Source: Parcubacteria group bacterium
GTDB lineage: Bacteria > Patescibacteriota > Patescibacteriia > UBA1558 > GWA2-36-10
NCBI GenBank assembly: GCA_003104935.1
Contig: PQAE01000007.1
Location: 47,221-111,220, forward strand
DNA length: 64,000 bases
Reading direction: 5' to 3'
In this document: piece by piece, positions 28,073 to 48,805 of the stretch
Layout: the number at the start of each line of letters is the position of its first letter
Position numbering within the stretch: the first letter of the stretch is position 1
Made by a program: the position numbers and the translations under genes
The notes under the pieces: model-generated
What the model saw: the letters and a program-made list of their open reading frames with translations, nothing else
The model's database searches: none
Told to the model about the DNA's origin: nothing

Positions 28073-29038
28073 ATGGAAATCAACAAACTCACTAGTCGCG
28101 CCATCCTAACCGCTGTCCAACAAGCGACTAATATTTTAGTTATCGCTCATAAAAAACCGGATGGTGATACTCTGGGTTCCAACCTAGCCTTTACCAAATA
28201 TCTGCTTAGTGTCGGTAAAAAATTTACCAGCTTTTGCCTACACCCGGCACCATCCCACCTAGCCTTTCTACCTAATAGCCATCTGATCAGTAATGATCAC
28301 CTCACCTTTAGCCAAACTTTTGACCTGGTTATTTTGCTGGATTCCAGTAATTTAGAATATGCCGGCGTTGACAAGCTCATGACCGCACTCCGGCCGGGTT
28401 ATAAAATAATTAATATTGACCACCATGTATCCAATACTATGTTTGGCGATATTAATCTGGTGATCTATGAAGCCTCTTCTACCGCCGAGGTGGTCTACCG
28501 TCTTTTTAAAGACTGGGACATAGACTGGAGTGCGGGTATCGCTTCTTGCCTGGCCTGCGGCATGATCACCGACACCGGCGGATTTAAAAATCCTGCTACC
28601 AACTATATTACACTGCTGGCCGCTTCCGATTTAAAAAGCAAAGGAGCAAATATCCATCAGATTACCAAACAAGCTCTAGGTAGTACAAAGCTCAATAATC
28701 TCCGTTTGTGGGGACGGGCTCTAGAGCGGCTCAGGGACGTGCCACACTATAATCTGATTTATACTTGGCTGACTGAACAGGATTTTACAGAATGCGCTAC
28801 GGATGAATCGGCCGTGGACGGACTGTCAAACTTTTTGCATATTATCAAGGAGGGAAAAATAATTATGGTTCTGCGCCAAAGCAAGGTCGATACCATCAAG
28901 GGGTCACTGCGCACTACCAGTAATATTGACCTGACAAAAATAGCGGAAATTTTCGGTGGCGGCGGACACAAAAAGGCCGCCGGTTTCAGCTTGTCAGGCC
29001 GGCTAGAATGTAATGATGGTCAGTTAATTATCAAATAG
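28073..29038 (+). CDS. nrnA: DHH/DHHA1 bifunctional oligoribonuclease / pAp phosphatase
   Basis: NIDHHVSNTMFGD (DHH) and GGGHKKAAGF (DHHA1 GGGH). Confidence 0.75.
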   Translation: MEINKLTSRAILTAVQQATNILVIAHKKPDGDTLGSNLAFTKYLLSVGKKFTSFCLHPAPSHLAFLPNSHLISNDHLTFSQTFDLVILLDSSNLEYAGVDKLMTALRPGYKIINIDHHVSNTMFGDINLVIYEASSTAEVVYRLFKDWDIDWSAGIASCLACGMITDTGGFKNPATNYITLLAASDLKSKGANIHQITKQALGSTKLNNLRLWGRALERLRDVPHYNLIYTWLTEQDFTECATDESAVDGLSNFLHIIKEGKIIMVLRQSKVDTIKGSLRTTSNIDLTKIAEIFGGGGHKKAAGFSLSGRLECNDGQLIIK

Positions 29039-29953
29039 GAAAATCTTACTTAATAATTCTTTCCTTAATTCCCAAGTATTGGCGTGTTTCAGCACACCGA
29101 GGTACGACGGTGCGTTATTTTTATTTACTAAGCGTAAAATTCTTCTCTTTGTCTTAGTTCGTAAAACTCTATAATGCGGCAAGGTCACATAGCCCAAAAA
29201 ATCTATACCTTGACTGACTTTTCTGATACTTATTTTCCCTGGGTGTATATCTAATCGTAATTGATCCTTTAAAAATGTGTTTAATTCTTTCAAAATATTT
29301 GCTAAATAACCTTTATCTTTATGCAAAATTATAAAATCGTCACAATAACGAATATAAAATTTCTGTTTTAACCCGTGTTTTACAAATTGATCTAATTCAT
29401 TTAGATAAATATTGCCAAAAAGCTGACTAGTTACATTGCCTAAGGGTAGTCCCTTATTATCTGCCGAAGAAAAACTATTAATTATTTTCTTAATTAACCA
29501 CATAACATCGACTTCTTCCACTCTATTCTCTAACAAAGCTAATAGTATCTTATGATCTATATTATTGAAAAACTTCTTGATATCACATTTTAAAGCATAG
29601 ATCTTTTGGCTATAATTCAGGCTCGCTCTAAGCACAAAATTTCCTAATCGTTTAACCCCCTTGTGCGTGCCTTTTCCTATCCGACATGAATAAGAATCAT
29701 ATATAAATTGCTTGTTAAAAATATGATATAATATTCTATATAAAGCTTGATGAACCACTCGATCTCGCACCCCTGCTTTATGGATATGCCTGAGCTTGGG
29801 GTCACAAACATAAAAGGCCTGATAAGGTGCGTGATTATAAGTCTTGTCCACTAATTCTTGGTGAAGTTGAAAAATATTATCTTCAAGATTAAACTCAAAT
29901 TCCTGTGTTTCCACCTTTCTGGTCTTACCCCTTTTAAATTCACGCCAGGCCAA
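29024..29953 (-). CDS. diversity-generating retroelement reverse transcriptase (DGR-1); N-terminus lacks an ATG in the conserved frame
   Basis: RT motifs YALKCDIKKFFNNIDH, GLPLGNVTSQLFGNIYLNELD (the DGR-type xGxxxSQ rather than QGxxxSP) and YIRYCDDFIIL; ~50% identical to the RT at 45002-45988. The ORF-track start is TTG. Confidence 0.85.
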   Translation of the reverse strand: MAWREFKRGKTRKVETQEFEFNLEDNIFQLHQELVDKTYNHAPYQAFYVCDPKLRHIHKAGVRDRVVHQALYRILYHIFNKQFIYDSYSCRIGKGTHKGVKRLGNFVLRASLNYSQKIYALKCDIKKFFNNIDHKILLALLENRVEEVDVMWLIKKIINSFSSADNKGLPLGNVTSQLFGNIYLNELDQFVKHGLKQKFYIRYCDDFIILHKDKGYLANILKELNTFLKDQLRLDIHPGKISIRKVSQGIDFLGYVTLPHYRVLRTKTKRRILRLVNKNNAPSYLGVLKHANTWELRKELLSKIFLFDN

Positions 29954-30027
29954 AAATAAATTATCTAAAGAAATAACTTCATTAAAAAGACTATTATGAT
30001 TATACCCCCCCCCCTCATAAGATAGGT

Positions 30028-30369
30028 TTGCCTATTGTCCATGAGATTACTAATTTATACCGAGAATTATATATCACCCGCCACCAAATACCAAAGGCCG
30101 AACGCTATGGGATTTTTCAGAAAATAGAAAACACAGTATTAGACTGCCTAGAGATTGCCCTCACCGCGGCCTTGACCGAGAAAGACAAAAAATCAATATT
30201 ATTGGTGAGACTAAAAATAAAGATTGAAATCATACAAAAATTAGTAAGATTAATTAGAGAATTAGAAATTATCTCGGAAAGAAAACATATTCTTTTTTCA
30301 CAAAAATCCATAACAATTTCTAAAATGACCAGTGGCTGGCTTAAGTATTTAAATAAAGAGCCTATCTAG
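30028..30369 (+). CDS. Avd-like four-helix-bundle protein (accessory variability determinant), divergent from the RT
   Basis: 113 aa; PKAERYGIFQKIENTVLDCLEIALTAA resembles the Avd / 23S-IVS four-helix-bundle family; paralogous to 46050-46364 at the protein level only. Confidence 0.6.
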   Translation: MPIVHEITNLYRELYITRHQIPKAERYGIFQKIENTVLDCLEIALTAALTEKDKKSILLVRLKIKIEIIQKLVRLIRELEIISERKHILFSQKSITISKMTSGWLKYLNKEPI

Positions 30370-30385: not shown

Positions 30386-30511
30386 GGAAACTTCTGCGCG
30401 ACCCCGCAAGTTGTCGTTGGCGTTATCCGGATTGTACCAGTTGACGTTCAGCTTGCTGTTGTCGCTGTTCCAGTTCACGTTCGGCACGTTACCATTGCGG
30501 TTACGCGAACC
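30386..30511 (-). repeat. DGR-1 template repeat (TR1)
   Basis: 126 bp matching 30840-30965 with about 20 mismatches; every mismatch is a T on the plus strand, i.e. an A on the transcribed minus strand. Confidence 0.85.
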
Positions 30512-30836: not shown

Positions 30837-31523
30837 TTAGGAAACTACTGCGCGACCCCGCAAGCCGTCGTCGGCGCTATCCGGATGGCACCAGTCGACG
30901 CACAGCTTGCCGAGGCCGCTGCTCCAGTACACGCACGGCACGCTACCATTGCGGTGACGCGAACCGGCGCAGAGCGTGGTGTTCTGGATGTCCAGATGCT
31001 TGTTGGTCTCCGAGTAGTATTTCAACTCGTAGACCAGTCTTTCCAGCAAAGTGATGCTGGAGATTTTTCGCTTCTGGAGATCATTGGCCGAGAGATTCTT
31101 CAGCTCTTCGTCTGCTTCCACGCGGTCGCGGACACGGATGGCGTAGGACGCCTCGGTGTTGCGATCGTTGTTAGGCACATCTTTGTCCAGATCATTTGTG
31201 TATGACCAAGACTTGAAGGCCTTGGAGCAGGCTTGGAAAGCCTGATTGATGGTCAGACCCTGGGGGATGAAGAGGACTCTGGTGAAGTCTTCTTGCTCTT
31301 CGGGAATGGAGACATCCGAGAAGTCCACGGACAGACGGAAGTACTTGCGGTAGAACTCCTGCCATTCCTCTTGGATGGAGTTGATGGCGAAGGGGTTTTG
31401 GCGCTGAGCAAAGAGATCCAGCTCCCGCGGCGTGATGACTCCGCTCTTGATCTTGAGCAAAATATCGCTCATGGTACCAAGCACAGTGCCCGGCACCATA
31501 CCGACCGTCGCCTGCTTAGGCAT
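30837..31523 (-). CDS. DGR-1 target (variable) protein with a C-terminal C-type-lectin/FGE-like variable region
   Basis: C-terminus ...CAGSRHRNGSVPCVYWSSGLGKLCVDWCHPDSADDGLRGRAVVS is encoded by VR1 at 30840-30965, up to the stop at 30837. Confidence 0.8.
   Translation of the reverse strand: MPKQATVGMVPGTVLGTMSDILLKIKSGVITPRELDLFAQRQNPFAINSIQEEWQEFYRKYFRLSVDFSDVSIPEEQEDFTRVLFIPQGLTINQAFQACSKAFKSWSYTNDLDKDVPNNDRNTEASYAIRVRDRVEADEELKNLSANDLQKRKISSITLLERLVYELKYYSETNKHLDIQNTTLCAGSRHRNGSVPCVYWSSGLGKLCVDWCHPDSADDGLRGRAVVS
30840..30965 (-). repeat. DGR-1 variable repeat (VR1)
   Basis: Covers the 3' end of the target ORF; differs from TR1 only at TR adenine positions; GC-rich IMH-like 3' end CTTGCGGGGTCGCGCAG. 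Confidence 0.85.
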
Positions 31524-31627: not shown

Positions 31628-31945
31628 ATGCTAAAAATAACAAGAAGAAAAGCGATGCGATATAAACAATACTATATCTATATTCTGGCCACATATAAAA
31701 ACGGTACGCTCTATACTGGTGTAACAAACAATTTAGTTAGAAGGGTTTGGGAGCATAAAAATAATATAACAAAAGGATTTACTGCTCGATACAATATTCA
31801 TAAATTAGTATATTTCGAAATATTTGAAGATATCTACGAAGCTATTTCTAGAGAAAAACAAATAAAAGCTGGTCCAAGAAAAAAGAAATTAGATTTAATA
31901 TACAACTTTAACCCTTTGTGGAAAGATTTATATAATAACCTCTAA
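31628..31945 (+). CDS. GIY-YIG nuclease family protein
   Basis: YYIYILATYKNGTLYTGVTNNLVRRVWEHK. Confidence 0.75.
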   Translation: MLKITRRKAMRYKQYYIYILATYKNGTLYTGVTNNLVRRVWEHKNNITKGFTARYNIHKLVYFEIFEDIYEAISREKQIKAGPRKKKLDLIYNFNPLWKDLYNNL

Positions 31946-45001: not shown

Positions 45002-45988
45002 CTACAAAGGAAAGTCTAAAAGGCCTTTTAACTTCATAGTATTACCGTAACCAAATAGCCCTAAATACGATTGTTTAGTAAATTCATTGTAGTTTTTTAA
45101 TTTGAGCCTGGTCAACATTCTTTTTTTACTTGTTGTCCTCAAAACACGATGATCTGTAAAATGTACCCACCCTAAAAAATCTATACCGGAATACAGGGTT
45201 TTAATAAAAACCTTATCGGGATGTAATTGTAATCGCAAATCATTATTTAAAAAATGTTTTATCACGCCCAAAATATTTTCTAACCATTTTTTGTCCTTAG
45301 ATAATATAACAAAATCATCGGCATATCGAATATAATATTTGGCTTTTAGCTTATGTTTTACAAACTGGTCAAATGTATTCATATAAACATTGACTAGTAG
45401 TTGTGATGTCAAATTTCCTAAAGGTAAACCTTTGTTATTGATGTGAAAACTATCAATCACTCTATTTAATAGCCATAAAATATTTTCATCAGCTATATAC
45501 TGACTTAAAATATCTATTAATATACTATGATCAATATTGGCAAAAAATTTCTTAATATCTCCTTTCAACACCCAAGCTGTTTTGGTATGATTTTGAGATG
45601 CTCGATAAGCAAAATTACAAAACTTGTTTATGGCCTTGTGAGTCCCTTTACCTAAACGGCAGGAATAAGAATCAGCAATAAATGTCGTGTCAAAAAAAGG
45701 ATACAAAACCCTATAGATAGCGTGATGTAATAGTCTATCGCGAACACTGGCCTTATGAATGTTTCTTGGTTTAGGGTCAGAAATATTGAAAGCCTGATAA
45801 TCCGAATGCCAATAAGTCTTATTTTTCAAATCACTATGTAGAGCTATAATATTACTCATTAAATCTAATTCAAATTCTTGGACATCCCGACGACTTCTTT
45901 TGCCTTTGATAAACTCCTGCCAGGCTAAAAGCAAATTTTCCAAAGAAATGATATAATCATAACTATAATTAAATTTAATTTTGCTCAT
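45002..45988 (-). CDS. diversity-generating retroelement reverse transcriptase (DGR-2)
   Basis: GLPLGNLTSQLLVNVYMNTFD (xGxxxSQ), YIRYADDFVIL; ATG start preceded by a G10-TATAAT element. Confidence 0.85.
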   Translation of the reverse strand: MSKIKFNYSYDYIISLENLLLAWQEFIKGKRSRRDVQEFELDLMSNIIALHSDLKNKTYWHSDYQAFNISDPKPRNIHKASVRDRLLHHAIYRVLYPFFDTTFIADSYSCRLGKGTHKAINKFCNFAYRASQNHTKTAWVLKGDIKKFFANIDHSILIDILSQYIADENILWLLNRVIDSFHINNKGLPLGNLTSQLLVNVYMNTFDQFVKHKLKAKYYIRYADDFVILSKDKKWLENILGVIKHFLNNDLRLQLHPDKVFIKTLYSGIDFLGWVHFTDHRVLRTTSKKRMLTRLKLKNYNEFTKQSYLGLFGYGNTMKLKGLLDFPL

Positions 45989-46049
45989 ATGACAGATTAT
46001 ACCCCCCCCCCGTCTATTACCAGTACTTCAAAAACTAAAAAGTGTTTAT

Positions 46050-46364
46050 TTGCTATGGTATAGCTATTACCAAGTTTTGCCAAAAAATCATCGCTATTCT
46101 CTGGGAATAAAAGTTGATAATTTACTGACGGAAACAATAGAATCAGTGGCTACGGCTATTTTCTTGGTACCCAACGACAAATTACCATACGTGCGACGAG
46201 GCATTCAGAAATTAGACACCTTAAAAATATTTCTAATGATTCTCTGGGAAACGAAATCTTTAGACGATAATAAATATATCGCCTTGTCAGTAAAAATAGA
46301 CGAGGTTGGCAAAATGTTGGGTGGCTGGCAAGGACAGATATTAAAACAAAACTCTCCTAAATAA
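46050..46364 (+). CDS. Avd-like four-helix-bundle protein, divergent from RT-2
   Basis: 104 aa; PKNHRYSLGIKVDNLLTETIESVATA; homologous to 30028-30369. Confidence 0.6.
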   Translation: MLWYSYYQVLPKNHRYSLGIKVDNLLTETIESVATAIFLVPNDKLPYVRRGIQKLDTLKIFLMILWETKSLDDNKYIALSVKIDEVGKMLGGWQGQILKQNSPK

Positions 46365-46385
46365 ATTAGGAGAGAAACGAAGTAT

Positions 46386-46507
46386 TTGCAGACCGCCGCG
46401 GGGTTGTTGTCGTTGAAGTTGTTGTCCAGGTAGTTGTAGTTCCAGTTCCACTGCTGGCCATTCCAGTAGAGATAGCGGACGTACAAGTTGCCGTTGGAGT
46501 TGCGGTA
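46386..46507 (-). repeat. DGR-2 template repeat (TR2)
   Basis: 122 bp matching 46929-47050; all 14 mismatches are T on the plus strand (A on the minus strand). Confidence 0.85.
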
Positions 46508-46924: not shown

Positions 46925-47503
46925 TTACTTGCAGACCGCCGCGGGGTTGCCGTCGTTGAAGTAGCTGCCCAGGTAGTAGTAGTTCCAGTTCCACTGCTGG
47001 CCATCCCAGTAGAGATAGCGGACGCACAAGTCGCCGTAGGAGCTGCGGTAGATGGTACCCCAGAAGTAGGTGTACTTTCCTTTCCACTCCTCGGGAATGA
47101 ACTGGGGATTTTTCAGATACCAATCCAAGAGATTGGCATTGAAGACCGGCTGGCCCTGGAGCTCCTTACGGAGATCGTGGCCTATGATCCAGCGACCGTC
47201 CTTCTTCCTCTCGGAGAGGTAGAGGCTGATCTTGGTGGGATCAAACTCCAACTTCCCACCACGGATGTGCTCCTCGACCTTCCAGCCGTCAGGCACGAAG
47301 GGGTTGGCGTCGAGGTCGACGATGTGTTTGGTGACGACGATCTGGGCCAGGCCGTGAAGCAGGGCTTTGATGTCGATGAGTTGAGGGTACTGACCCAGCA
47401 AAGTGATTTCTGCCGGAGTAAAATCCTTCGCCTCCAGAGCGTTCATCAGCTGATGAGTCTGACCCTCAGAATAAGAAGACATGTCTTCTCTCCTTTTTGG
47501 CAC
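46925..47503 (-). CDS. DGR-2 target (variable) protein with a Tyr/Trp-rich C-terminus
   Basis: C-terminus ...CVRYLYWDGQQWNWNYYYLGSYFNDGNPAAVCK is encoded by VR2. Confidence 0.75.
   Translation of the reverse strand: MPKRREDMSSYSEGQTHQLMNALEAKDFTPAEITLLGQYPQLIDIKALLHGLAQIVVTKHIVDLDANPFVPDGWKVEEHIRGGKLEFDPTKISLYLSERKKDGRWIIGHDLRKELQGQPVFNANLLDWYLKNPQFIPEEWKGKYTYFWGTIYRSSYGDLCVRYLYWDGQQWNWNYYYLGSYFNDGNPAAVCK
46929..47050 (-). repeat. DGR-2 variable repeat (VR2)
   Basis: Covers the 3' end of the target ORF and differs from TR2 only at TR adenine positions. Confidence 0.85.
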
Positions 47504-47856: not shown

Positions 47857-47973
47857 TGCGGCCAGCCACGCTTGTTCACGGTCATTGCGAGCCCGTCTCA
47901 GGGCGTGGCAATCTAAATGTTTTAGATTGCTTCGTCGCCGTAGGCTCCTCGCAATGACTATTAATTTCCGTGG
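47857..47973. repeat. nested palindromic element; its inner part is shared with 31950-32020
   Basis: GCGGCCAGCCACG...GTCATTGCGAG...TTTTAGATTGCTTCG...CTCGCAATGAC...CGTGGCTGGCCGC. Confidence 0.5.
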
Positions 47974-48025
47974 CTGGCCGCCGCAACTTTTTCTATTTTG
48001 TGTCGCTTTATGTTAAGATATAAGT

Positions 48026-48805
48026 ATGTCTGGAATAAAAGAATATACAAAATATCTCAAAGCCGGTGGTCTAAAAAAACAAACTGTCGAAAATTACCTC
48101 TGGCACACCAGTAAATTTTTGAATTGGCTGGGCACTAATGACTTAAATACGGAAAAAATTAAATCTTATCAGAAAGACTTAGTCCGCTCCGCTTATAGTC
48201 CGGCTACCGTCAACCTTCATCTCATTAGTATCAATAAATATTTAGACTATCGCGGGCTAAAATCAAAGCTTCATCTTGTGGCCGAGCCAACTAAAGAACT
48301 TGATTATCTAAATAAACGCCAGCTGTCTCTCTTTGTGGAGGCCGTGCCCAATACTTCGAAGTTTATTCATCTGCGCGACCGGGCGCTGCTGGAAATACTC
48401 TATACTACCGGGCTTAAAGTGGGGCAGATTATTTTACTAAAAAAGCATCATATTGATACCGTCAAGCAAGAAATAATTTTAGATAATAAAAAACAACTCC
48501 TCCTGCCACCTCTAGCCTGGTCGGCTCTGAAAAAATATCTGGACAGAAGAGTTGACGATATAGATTATTTATTTGTCAATCTGGATAGAGCACAAAAGGG
48601 TAAAGAAATGATGCTATCTATCCGCTCAGTCGAGAGAATTATTGAAAAATACGGCCGCCAGATCGGCTTGGAGGTAACACCGCAAATTTTACGCAATACT
48701 CTGGCCAAAAATCTAAAAAATGACGGCGCCGACCGCGGTCAATTACAAGCACAGCTGCATTTTCATACCAAACTGGGTGCGGAAAATTATCTCAAGAGAA
48801 TTTAA
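48026..48805 (+). CDS. tyrosine recombinase-like protein (small, possibly degenerate active site)
   Basis: 259 aa; N-terminal SAM-like core-binding region; RDRALLEILYTTGLKVGQ (Arg), QILRNTLA (R present, H replaced by Q), ...ENYLKRI (Tyr). Confidence 0.55.
   Translation: MSGIKEYTKYLKAGGLKKQTVENYLWHTSKFLNWLGTNDLNTEKIKSYQKDLVRSAYSPATVNLHLISINKYLDYRGLKSKLHLVAEPTKELDYLNKRQLSLFVEAVPNTSKFIHLRDRALLEILYTTGLKVGQIILLKKHHIDTVKQEIILDNKKQLLLPPLAWSALKKYLDRRVDDIDYLFVNLDRAQKGKEMMLSIRSVERIIEKYGRQIGLEVTPQILRNTLAKNLKNDGADRGQLQAQLHFHTKLGAENYLKRI

What the first reader, a model, noticed from the sequence alone, without database searches (positions are those of the whole stretch)
29954..30018. Conserved G10-TATAAT element just upstream of both DGR RT genes; RT-1 lacks an ATG in the conserved frame
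On the minus strand both RTs are preceded by GGGGGGGGGG-TATAATC (plus-strand C10 at 30005-30014 and 46002-46011). In DGR-2 the ATG follows 7 nt after TATAAT, giving a leaderless-type context. In DGR-1 the reading frame homologous to RT-2 (YNHNSLFNEVISLDNLFLAWREF versus NYSYDYIISLENLLLAWQEF) runs straight from the TATAAT into the RT with no ATG. RT-1 is therefore either 5'-truncated or inactive, uses a non-ATG start, or needs slippage on the G-tract. A homopolymeric G10 is also a candidate phase-variation tract.
Basis: seen in the sequence. Interest (0 to 1): 0.5.

Follow-up and report, generated by a model that had tools for sequence, protein, structure and literature searches.

The report
Slippery G-tract gating DGR genes
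The run of ten G's next to each retroelement reverse transcriptase is a conserved, length-unstable repeat lying inside the overlapping starts of the two genes (avd and RT) needed for targeted hypermutation, so a one-base change probably switches the mutagenesis machinery on or off.

Summary
G10-TATAATC occurs twice, these are the only G/C runs of 8 or more in 64 kb, and RT-1 has no start codon in its own frame. The element is mainly not a promoter. Avd is encoded divergently on the + strand, and its ATG lies beyond the tract, so Avd reads the tract as Pro-Pro-Pro. In DGR-1 the RT also starts upstream of the tract and reads it as Gly-Gly-Gly.

At G10, RT-1, Avd-1 and Avd-2 are all out of frame. 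G11 or G8 restores both RT-1 and Avd-1. C9 or C12 restores Avd-2.

- Of 80 related Patescibacteria DGR loci, 49 carry a G8-12 tract at this site, against 4 G/C runs elsewhere in 469 kb. Eight others carry (GA)n, (CT)n or (GT)n there.
- RT and Avd need the same length correction in 23 of 25 unambiguous loci (P about 1e-9).
- In two lineages the flanks are identical while the tract varies (G7-G10, and G9-G11). The VR diversifies in both.

The best reading is a slipped-strand phase-variation switch for DGR activity. That is inferred from assemblies, not from reads. TAnnAT-N7-ATG is conserved only in DGR-2-type loci. I found no prior description.

The parts
30005..30014 (.). DGR-1 homopolymer tract (G10 on the RT strand, C10 on the avd strand). 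It lies in the antisense overlap of the RT-1 and avd-1 5' coding regions.
   Evidence: frame modelling
30040..30042 (-). RT-1 distal ATG, the reverse complement of the His codon of the avd-1 LPIVH motif. It is in the same frame as the proximal ATG at 30016-30018. It joins the RT body only at G11 or G8, giving MDNRQTYLMRGGGYNHNSLF...
30016..30018 (-). RT-1 proximal ATG, 1 nt before the tract and one base out of frame with the RT body at G10.
29024..30004 (-). RT-1 body frame (RVT_1), running from the codon after the tract to the stop. There is no in-frame start before the TTG at 29953.
29996..29998 (+). avd-1 ATG, the reverse complement of an RT-1 His codon. At C10 it gives the 9-aa peptide MIIPPPLIR*. 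At C11 or C8 it gives full-length Avd (MIIPPPPHKIGLPIVHE..., 124 aa).
30028..30369 (+). avd-1 body (bAvd, profile positions 3-106 of 107). The TTG at 30028 is the only start available at C10.
29999..30004 (-). TATAAT after the DGR-1 tract. It is not conserved in DGR-1-type homologues and here forms RT codons Tyr-Asn.
30386..30511 (-). TR-1
   Evidence: 20 of 20 mismatches to the VR fall at TR adenines
30837..31523 (-). DGR-1 target gene, with VR-1 at 30840-30965
30066..30094 (-). Promoter-like site TTGGTA-17-TATAAT inside avd-1 (antisense), upstream of the RT-1 ATGs. Candidate RT promoter (inferred only).
46002..46011 (.). DGR-2 homopolymer tract (G10/C10). It lies in the avd-2 5' coding region and directly abuts the -10-like box of RT-2.
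45996..46001 (-). TATAAT, 7 nt upstream of the RT-2 ATG. This TAnnAT-N7-ATG arrangement is conserved in 11 of 12 loci of this sub-clade, making it a candidate -10 box for a leaderless RT-2 mRNA.
45002..45988 (-). RT-2 (328 aa, RVT_1). Its frame does not depend on tract length.
45989..45991 (+). avd-2 ATG, back-to-back with the RT-2 ATG in the palindrome CATATG. At C10 it gives a 24-aa peptide. At C9 or C12 it gives full-length Avd (MTDYTPPPRLLPVLQKLKSVY...).
46050..46364 (+). avd-2 body as listed from the TTG. It covers only bAvd profile positions 15-105. The residues between the tract and this TTG (46011-46049) supply profile positions 4-14.
46383..46507 (-). TR-2
   Evidence: 12 of 12 mismatches at TR adenines
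46925..47503 (-). DGR-2 target gene, with VR-2 at 46926-47050
46055..46083 (-). Promoter-like site TTGGCA-17-TACCAT inside avd-2 (antisense), at the position homologous to the DGR-1 site.

Best explanation
The G/C homopolymer is a hypermutable simple-sequence repeat placed inside the 5' coding region of avd and, in DGR-1-type elements, also inside the 5' coding region of the RT. The two genes are divergent and their starts have crossed over, giving the order [avd body <-][RT ATG ->][tract][<- avd ATG][RT body ->]. The RT reads the tract as Gly codons and Avd reads it as Pro codons. Replication slippage that adds or removes one base changes the frame of both leaders at once. Only every third length gives full-length Avd and RT from their ATGs, and both proteins are needed for cDNA synthesis. 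The tract would therefore act as a stochastic, heritable and reversible ON/OFF switch for DGR mutagenesis. In the window both DGRs are in an OFF length. DGR-1 needs G11 or G8 for both RT-1 and Avd-1, and DGR-2 needs C9 or C12 for Avd-2. In DGR-2-type elements the tract also abuts a -10-like box for a probably leaderless RT mRNA, so its length may additionally tune RT transcription. Shown here: the anatomy, conservation, site specificity, co-phasing, length polymorphism on identical backgrounds, and VR-restricted variation in those lineages. Inferred: that slippage happens at high frequency within clones, that out-of-frame lengths abolish the proteins, and that the switch is adaptive.
For: (1) The tract sits in coding sequence. 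RT homologues read through it as GGG. Avd residues just after the tract (LPIVH / LLPVLQK) are conserved and belong to the bAvd domain: profile coverage extends from 15-105 to 4-105 when avd-2 is read through the tract. No start codon lies between the tract and that motif. (2) The site is highly specific: 49 G runs of 8 or more at this site against 4 G/C runs elsewhere in 468.6 kb of 80 loci, and both of the window's G/C runs of 8 or more are at this site. (3) Different repeat types, (GA)n, (CT)n and (GT)n, occupy the same position in 8 loci, which argues for selection on slippage rather than on a particular sequence. (4) Co-phasing: in 23 of 25 unambiguous DGR-1-type loci the RT and the avd need the same number of added bases, although leader lengths differ (P=1.5e-9). 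(5) Lengths of 7-12 are spread over all three phases, 10/18/24 for 0, +1 and +2. (6) Polymorphism on identical backgrounds. In the P0009 lineage the RT body is almost identical, the 70-nt and 50-nt flanks are identical, and the tract is G7 x1, G8 x2, G9 x10 and G10 x9; G8 and G11 put both genes in frame from ATG. In the Yanofskybacteria lineage the flanks are identical in 16 of 17 contigs, and the tract is G9 x8 (both genes in frame), G10 x8 and G11 x1. In the same sample series another lineage is constantly G8, which serves as an internal control against assembly noise. (7) In both polymorphic lineages the variable columns upstream of the tract cluster in the VR (all but one in the Yanofskybacteria lineage; a further block in the P0009 lineage lies upstream in the target gene, mostly in one contig), and the same major VR haplotype occurs with different tract lengths. 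The lineage fixed at an out-of-frame G8 shows no VR variation over at least 8 contigs. (8) The bRT-Avd complex is necessary for DGR cDNA synthesis (PMC6182149).
Against: No reads were available, so heterogeneity within a population or clone and reversibility are not shown. Variation between assemblies could partly reflect consensus calling at homopolymers. In-frame lengths are not enriched, and in DGR-2-type loci avd is in frame in only 2 of 25 (P=0.0035 for depletion). That means either that OFF is strongly favoured or that expression does not depend on the genomic frame. In the P0009 lineage the VR diversifies although most contigs are G9 or G10, which are out of frame from ATG. TTG starts exist for one gene or the other in some 'OFF' lengths. 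The window organism could not be found in any other data set. The avd and RT start codons are assigned by inference only.
Confidence: 0.6

Rival explanations
1. Recoding rather than DNA switching. The tract is a slippery site where RNA polymerase (reiterative transcription) or the ribosome (shifting on CCC/GGG codons, poly-Pro stalling) slips. Some full-length Avd and RT would then be made from any genomic length, and the tract would act as a constitutive attenuator keeping DGR proteins scarce.
For: In-frame lengths are not enriched and are depleted in DGR-2-type loci. The VR diversifies in a lineage whose contigs are mostly out of frame. Homopolymers of 9-12 are known slippage substrates (own knowledge).
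Against: The required shift is 0, +1 or +2 in different loci, unlike programmed frameshifts, which keep one direction. Dinucleotide repeats replace the homopolymer in 8 loci, and these are poor substrates for transcriptional or ribosomal slippage. No stimulatory RNA structure was found (z about 0). DNA-level length variation demonstrably exists. The lineage fixed at G8 shows a static VR.
Confidence: 0.2
2. Promoter element. G-tract plus TATAAT is the RT promoter (-10 box, leaderless mRNA). The tract acts as a spacer or upstream element whose length tunes transcription, and the coding overlap is incidental.
For: TAnnAT-N7-ATG directly after the tract is conserved in 11 of 12 loci of the DGR-2 sub-clade, with the variable positions where a -10 box tolerates change. 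The same TATAATC follows both tracts in the window even though DGR-1-type loci do not normally have it.
Against: There is no -35 box, and the scan does not call the site. TATAAT is not conserved in DGR-1-type loci (4 of 29), where the RT ATG lies upstream of the tract. This reading does not explain the avd ATG beyond the tract, the conserved Avd residues contiguous with the tract, or the RT/avd co-phasing.
Confidence: 0.12
3. Artefact or decay. The out-of-frame lengths are homopolymer sequencing or assembly errors, or the window's DGRs are simply frameshifted pseudogenes.
For: Homopolymers are error-prone. L006 shows Ns and aberrant poly-C and poly-G runs next to the site, and some contigs end at the repeat. 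The window has a single assembly.
Against: About four in five of 52 scored loci from many independent, mostly short-read assemblies are out of frame. Length classes are each supported by 8-10 independent contigs and separate by sample set. A co-occurring lineage is constantly G8 in the same sample series. The flanking leaders remain open and co-phased, which decay would not preserve. TR/VR differences are 100% adenine-specific.
Confidence: 0.05

Closest known systems
Homopolymeric poly-G/poly-C contingency loci of Campylobacter, Neisseria, Haemophilus and Helicobacter (SSR-mediated phase variation; e.g. PMC8437040, PMC6321876, PMC2823697, listed)
   Same: A G/C run of about 8-12 in the 5' part of a coding region. 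Changes of one base shift the frame. The tract is over-represented at specific genes, and its length is polymorphic among near-identical strains.
   Different: Here the gated genes are not surface or restriction-modification genes but the enzymatic core of a targeted hypermutation system. One tract lies in the antisense overlap of two divergent genes and gates both. The hosts are uncultivated Patescibacteria. Switching has not been measured.
Promoter-spacer homopolymers (Neisseria porA/opc poly-G/C, Bordetella fim poly-C); own knowledge, not tested here
   Same: In DGR-2-type loci the tract directly abuts a -10-like hexamer, as in promoters whose strength changes with tract length.
   Different: No -35 element was identified. 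The same tract is also coding for avd. In DGR-1-type loci the tract lies downstream of the RT start codon.
[quoted passage not shown] 2018, PMC5758913) and the prototype Bordetella phage BPP-1 DGR
   Same: Target gene with a 3' VR, a TR, bAvd and an RVT_1 RT, with adenine-specific TR-to-VR differences. The exact gene order of 'B3' was not read in the paper, so matching it to this cassette is an inference.
   Different: The survey text does not mention homopolymers, and I saw no mention there of crossed-over or overlapping avd and RT starts. In BPP-1, avd, TR and brt are co-oriented with no such tract (own knowledge).
Phasevarions (phase-variable DNA methyltransferases) and reversible mutator switches; own knowledge
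   Same: A second-order switch: a stochastic ON/OFF locus controls a system that itself changes many phenotypes or the mutation supply.
   Different: Those act genome-wide through methylation or mismatch repair. Here the switch would gate mutagenesis of a single protein-binding site.

Membership tests
Diversity-generating retroelement | Reverse transcriptase (RVT_1) next to a template repeat | tested here: met
   PF00078 at E 2e-22 and 1e-26. The TRs lie 370-520 nt upstream on the same strand.
Diversity-generating retroelement | TR/VR pair differing only at TR adenines | tested here: met
   20 of 20 (DGR-1) and 12 of 12 (DGR-2) mismatches are at TR adenines on the minus strand.
Diversity-generating retroelement | VR at the 3' end of a target ORF, plus an Avd accessory gene | tested here: met
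   The VRs end 3 and 1 nt before the target stop regions. bAvd PF22296 scores 41.4 and 40.0 bits.
Diversity-generating retroelement | Ongoing mutagenic retrohoming | not testable with these tools
   There is only one assembly of the window organism. In two related lineages, between-sample variation is concentrated in the VR.
SSR-mediated phase-variable (contingency) locus | Repeat tract long enough to slip, placed where an indel changes expression | tested here: met
   G10 lies in the avd 5' CDS in both DGRs and in the RT-1 5' CDS. Modelled lengths give 9-25 aa peptides against 124-339 aa proteins.
SSR-mediated phase-variable (contingency) locus | Tract enriched at this locus relative to the genomic background and conserved as a repeat in homologues | tested here: met
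   49 runs at the site against 4 elsewhere in 468.6 kb. The window has 2 of 2 at the site. Other repeat types occupy the same place.
SSR-mediated phase-variable (contingency) locus | Length polymorphism among otherwise identical sequences | tested here: met
   Met in two related lineages: G7-G10, and G9-G11, with identical flanks in all contigs except the single G11 contig L136. Not testable for the window organism itself.
SSR-mediated phase-variable (contingency) locus | High-frequency reversible switching within a clone, with a matching change in protein and phenotype | not testable with these tools
   This needs reads, single-cell or culture data, and reporter assays.
Sigma-70-type promoter with leaderless RT mRNA | -10 hexamer with a -35 hexamer at 16-18 nt | tested here: not met
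   TATAAT is present, but no -35 with at least 4 of 6 matches, so the scan does not call the site.
Sigma-70-type promoter with leaderless RT mRNA | Conservation of the -10 box and of its distance to the ATG in homologues | tested here: inconclusive
   TAnnAT-N7-ATG in 11 of 12 loci of the DGR-2 sub-clade, but TAnnnT in only 4 of 29 DGR-1-type loci.
Sigma-70-type promoter with leaderless RT mRNA | Mapped transcription start at or near the ATG | not testable with these tools
   No transcript data.
Programmed ribosomal frameshift / transcriptional slippage site | Fixed direction of the required shift, conserved across homologues | tested here: not met
   The required correction is 0, +1 or +2 in different loci, at 10/18/24.
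Programmed ribosomal frameshift / transcriptional slippage site | Stimulatory RNA structure next to the slippery run | tested here: not met
   Folding z-scores range from -0.06 to +0.83 on both strands at both loci. No Rfam family matches.

The most novel reading that the evidence does not exclude
A single homopolymer embedded in the antisense overlap of the avd and RT start regions is a heritable, reversible master switch for targeted hypermutation across much of the Patescibacteria. Cells that slip into the in-frame length diversify their target protein and then slip out again, which locks in a useful variant. That would be a built-in answer to how DGR hosts avoid mutating away an adaptive VR.
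Probability: 0.45. Interest if true: 0.85.

Novelty: new variant of a known kind. Interest (0 to 1): 0.78.

Why it matters
How DGR mutagenesis is restrained is an open question, because continued activity would destroy a beneficial variant once it has been found. A slippage-prone tract gating both Avd and RT would give CPR bacteria a stochastic ON/OFF control over hypermutation, a contingency locus that controls another diversity generator. It would also be an unusual design, with one repeat shared by two divergent, antisense-overlapping reading frames. In practical terms, it means many CPR DGR RT and avd genes are mis-annotated as truncated, given non-canonical starts, or not called at all. 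It also means DGR 'activity' inferred from metagenomes should be stratified by tract length. The VR lies only about 0.8-0.9 kb from the tract, so long reads could link switch state to VR haplotype directly and make the idea testable in existing samples.

Tried and rejected
(1) Exact-protein look-up of P0043 (Azambacteria) gave G11 in all 7 contigs. The test is biased, because the called ORF includes the tract and identical protein therefore forces identical length. I used proteins or cluster members whose calls differ at the N-terminus instead. (2) The apparent polymorphism at the RT 3' end / ruvX junction in that cluster (P0133, P0135, P0138) is not caused by a homopolymer. The DNA is identical in the contigs read, and the differences are gene-calling choices. 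(3) Looking for the window organism elsewhere found nothing. This covered exact RT-2 and RT-1 protein look-ups and two metagenome scans with flank-N{6,14}-flank patterns. Within-organism tract variation therefore could not be tested. (4) A structured RNA or known RNA family at the tract was rejected. Rfam finds only two tRNAs in the window, and folding energies are no better than shuffles. (5) Sigma-70 promoter scans do not call G10-TATAAT. (6) A sequence-specific role for poly-G, such as a protein or RT binding site or a G-quadruplex, is disfavoured. Dinucleotide repeats substitute for it, and about a quarter of related DGRs (23 of 80 loci) have no repeat there; several of these have back-to-back avd and RT ATGs instead. 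(7) Literature: eight full-text searches and the Wu et al. 2018 survey gave no description of repeats in DGR avd or RT. Paul et al. 2017 (Nat Microbiol) and a 2026 preprint that mentions DGRs and homopolymers could not be opened, so prior mention there cannot be excluded.

Full report
**1. The observation**

The minus strand carries GGGGGGGGGG-TATAATC at 30014..29998 and at 46011..45995. These are the only G or C runs of 8 or more in the 64-kb window, whose G+C content is 43%. RT-2 has an ATG (45988) 7 nt after TATAAT. The RT-1 frame runs from the TAT at 30004 straight into the conserved N-terminal helix (…ISLDNLFLAWREF). It is closed upstream by the TAG at 30034-32 and has no ATG, GTG or TTG before the TTG at 29953. 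The public annotation of the same protein uses an ATT start (P0001, 316 aa, Parcubacteria MAG).

**2. What surrounds it**

Both elements are genuine DGRs.
- Each has an RVT_1 RT and a bAvd gene.
- Each has a 125-nt TR/VR pair.
- The differences between TR and VR fall only at TR adenines on the minus strand: 20 of 20 in DGR-1 and 12 of 12 in DGR-2.

The gene order on the minus strand is target(VR) – TR – [avd on the opposite strand] – tract – RT. The two cassettes are old paralogues (RT 52% and Avd 25% identity). Only the 17-nt block is identical between them.

The listed avd-2 ORF (TTG at 46050) covers only bAvd profile positions 15-105. Reading the same frame back to the tract adds the conserved LLPVLQKLKSVY and extends coverage to positions 4-105. 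No start codon lies between the tract and that motif in either locus or in the homologues. The only ATGs are beyond the tract, at 29996-98 for avd-1 and 45989-91 for avd-2. The avd-2 ATG forms the palindrome CATATG with the RT-2 ATG.

On the RT strand, DGR-1 has ATGs at 30042-40 and 30018-16, upstream of the tract. The anatomy is therefore [avd body <-][RT ATG ->][tract][<- avd ATG][RT body ->]. The tract is read as Gly codons by the RT and as Pro codons by Avd.

**3. The state of the window**

| Locus | Tract length | Avd | RT |
|---|---|---|---|
| DGR-1 | G10 (observed) | MIIPPPLIR*, 9 aa | 25-aa peptide from the upstream ATG |
| DGR-1 | G11 | 124 aa, MIIPPPPHKIGLPIVHE… | 339 aa, MDNRQTYLMRGGGYNHNSLF… |
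| DGR-1 | G8 | 123 aa | 338 aa |
| DGR-2 | C10 (observed) | 24-aa peptide | 328 aa, not affected by the tract |
| DGR-2 | C9 / C12 | 124 / 125 aa | 328 aa, not affected by the tract |

In DGR-1 a single added base restores both genes at once.

**4. Comparative evidence**

I fetched 80 loci encoding RT relatives, nearly all from Patescibacteria MAGs.
- Conservation and specificity. 49 loci have a G run of 8 or more within 130 nt upstream to 40 nt downstream of the RT N-terminus, always with G on the RT strand. Only 4 G/C runs of 8 or more occur anywhere else in 468.6 kb. Tract lengths are 7 (3 loci), 8 (1), 9 (20), 10 (16), 11 (10) and 12 (2).
- Other repeat types. Eight further loci carry (GA)n, (CT)n or (GT)n at the same place. 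The remaining 23 carry no repeat of either kind there, and several of them have avd and RT ATGs back-to-back.
- Reading through the tract. RT homologues in the protein database read through it, for example MLGNRHQNVLGGGYSRHDFLF, MNQGDIGTAGGGLNSHNIF and MGGGEHNGLF. The N-terminus of RT-1 therefore does belong upstream of the tract.

Two arrangements exist.
- Type A, which includes DGR-1. The RT ATG lies upstream of the tract, so both genes cross it. The RT ATG is the reverse complement of the His codon in the Avd LPIVH motif, and the avd ATG is the reverse complement of a His codon in the RT.
- Type B, which includes DGR-2. The RT ATG lies downstream of the tract, so only avd crosses it.

**5. 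Co-phasing**

For each locus I asked how many bases must be added to the tract to bring an upstream ATG into the body frame, separately for the RT and for avd. In type A, 23 of 25 unambiguous loci need the same correction for both genes, although leader lengths differ between loci. The probability of this is 1.5e-9 if the phases were independent. The loci are related, so this P-value is generous. Even so, the leaders have changed length repeatedly without losing the relation, which is what selection on two real start codons gated by one tract would produce.

Across 52 scored loci (50 of the 80, plus the window's two) the corrections needed are 0, +1 and +2 in about 10, 18 and 24. In-frame lengths are not favoured in consensus assemblies. 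In type B, avd is in frame in only 2 of 25 loci (P=0.0035 for depletion).

**6. Polymorphism on identical backgrounds**

Within 90%-identity RT clusters the proteins have near-identical bodies but different N-termini. DNA for two lineages confirms the cause.
- P0009 lineage (groundwater series). 22 contigs have identical 70-nt and 50-nt flanks, with tracts of G7 (1), G8 (2), G9 (10) and G10 (9). G8 and G11 put both the RT (MNNWQSYFISAGGGKH…) and Avd (MFAPPSGNEITLPIIHE…) in frame from ATG. The other lengths do not.
- Yanofskybacteria lineage. 17 contigs, 16 of them with identical 90-nt and 60-nt flanks, with tracts of G9 (8), G10 (8) and G11 (1). The G11 contig (L136) has a different left flank. 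G9 puts both genes in frame. The length classes separate by sample set.
- Control lineage. A third lineage in the same sample series is G8 in all 10 contigs, and there G9 would restore both genes. This argues that the variation in the other two is not assembly noise.

**7. Link to DGR activity**

In both polymorphic lineages the variable columns upstream of the tract cluster in the VR.
- Yanofskybacteria lineage. All but one variable column lie at -900 to -809.
- P0009 lineage. The VR block lies at about -929 to -825. About a dozen further variable columns lie upstream in the target gene, mostly in one contig, and two lie nearer the tract.
- Haplotypes. Many VR haplotypes occur. The major haplotype is found with G8, G9 and G10 in the P0009 lineage, and with G9 and G10 in the Yanofskybacteria lineage.

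The tract therefore changes on a constant VR background, and the DGRs have been active. The lineage fixed at out-of-frame G8 shows no VR variation in at least 8 contigs. With only three lineages this correlation is suggestive and no more.

**8. Mechanism**

The best-supported reading is slipped-strand mispairing at a contingency repeat that gates translation of Avd, and of the RT as well in type A. Since the bRT-Avd complex is necessary for cDNA synthesis (PMC6182149), this gates DGR mutagenesis.

What is shown: the anatomy, conservation, site specificity, substitution by other repeat types, co-phasing, length polymorphism and VR-restricted variation.

What is inferred: high-frequency reversible switching within clones, loss of protein at out-of-frame lengths, and adaptive value.

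The main rival is recoding, meaning transcriptional or ribosomal slippage that yields some product at any length.
- For it: in-frame lengths are not enriched, and the VR diversifies in a lineage that is mostly G9 or G10.
- Against it: the direction of the required shift varies between loci, dinucleotide repeats occur at the same site, no stimulatory structure is present, and the G8 lineage has a static VR.

The two mechanisms could coexist.

**9. The TATAAT**

In type A loci the sequence after the tract is roughly yTTAAT-GTCATAAT, which is RT codons including the His codon that is the avd ATG on the other strand. TAnnnT is found in only 4 of 29. In the type B sub-clade whose RT ATG lies 13 nt after the tract, 11 of 12 loci have TAnnAT-N7-ATG, with variation confined to the two middle positions. 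The tract then sits where promoter-spacer repeats sit in known phase-variable promoters. No -35 box is found. Promoter-like sites also occur at homologous positions inside avd (antisense), upstream of both RTs. Why DGR-1 shares the exact TATAATC of DGR-2 is unexplained: under type A position frequencies the chance is about 1e-3.

**10. Comparison with what is known, and novelty**

The cassette looks like the inverted-avd arrangement common in CPR DGRs, which I take to be the 'B3' type that makes up 90% of the CPR set in PMC5758913; I did not read the definition of B3 in that paper. The switch works like the poly-G/C contingency loci of Campylobacter, Neisseria and Haemophilus. What I could not find described is:
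- a repeat in DGR avd or RT genes;
- the crossed-over, antisense-overlapping starts;
- a single tract gating two divergent genes.

Eight full-text searches and the 2018 survey were negative. Two potentially relevant papers could not be read. I classify this as a new variant of a known kind.

**11. Verdict**

The finding is real and more interesting than proposed. It is not an upstream promoter motif but a conserved, length-unstable repeat inside the overlapping 5' ends of avd and RT. In this window it leaves RT-1, Avd-1 and Avd-2 out of frame, and it is probably an ON/OFF switch for targeted hypermutation. My confidence in the phase-variation mechanism is about 0.6, and read-level and expression data are still needed.

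Noticed in passing
P0029 (483 aa) and P0033 (512 aa), close homologues of RT-1: These DGR-type RTs carry an additional PF03167 (uracil-DNA glycosylase superfamily) domain, which suggests RT-UDG fusions in some Patescibacteria DGRs.
   Followed up: no
window 47858-47981 and 48026-48805: An inverted repeat with 34-nt arms (79% complementary, 56-nt spacer) lies just beyond the DGR-2 target gene. It is directly upstream of a 259-aa ORF that looks like a tyrosine recombinase by eye (not tested). It may be a recombination or inversion site.
   Followed up: no
window 31628-31945 (+): A small ORF next to the DGR-1 target gene contains YYIYILATYKNGTLYTGVTNNLVRRVWEHK, which resembles GIY-YIG (UPF0213-type) nucleases by eye. 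Not tested against Pfam.
   Followed up: no
P0147 (cluster of P0034): One cluster member has an RT body identical to its cluster mates but a DGR-2-type N-terminus (…MKIQLVHKFDDIISLENLF) instead of the GGG-containing DGR-1-type leader. This suggests the avd/RT junction module can be exchanged between the two arrangements.
   Followed up: no
L036 1-85, L049 1-40, L008 1-52, L006 about 1800-2006: Several contigs begin at or within a few dozen bases of the repeat, and L006 has Ns plus aberrant C15 and G13 runs beside it. Assemblies tend to break at this site, as expected if reads are heterogeneous there.
   Followed up: partly
window 29998-30004 versus 45995-46001: The 7 nt after the tract (TATAATC) are identical in the two diverged DGRs of this genome, although DGR-1-type loci elsewhere do not have this sequence (about 1e-3 under their position frequencies). 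The flanks beyond the 17-nt block are dissimilar. This may be a shared -10 element or a short conversion patch. Unexplained.
   Followed up: partly
window 30066-30094 (-) and 46055-46083 (-): Promoter-like sites occur at homologous positions inside avd (antisense). Their -35-like TTGGnA is the reverse complement of the conserved Avd Pro-Lys codons, so the RT promoter may be embedded in avd coding sequence.
   Followed up: partly
L081-L090 (P0013 lineage): The tract is G8 in all 10 samples, out of frame for both genes. The VR (L081 538-653) is invariant, although TR and VR differ at 16 positions. This looks like a DGR locked OFF by a shortened, less slippery tract.
   Followed up: partly
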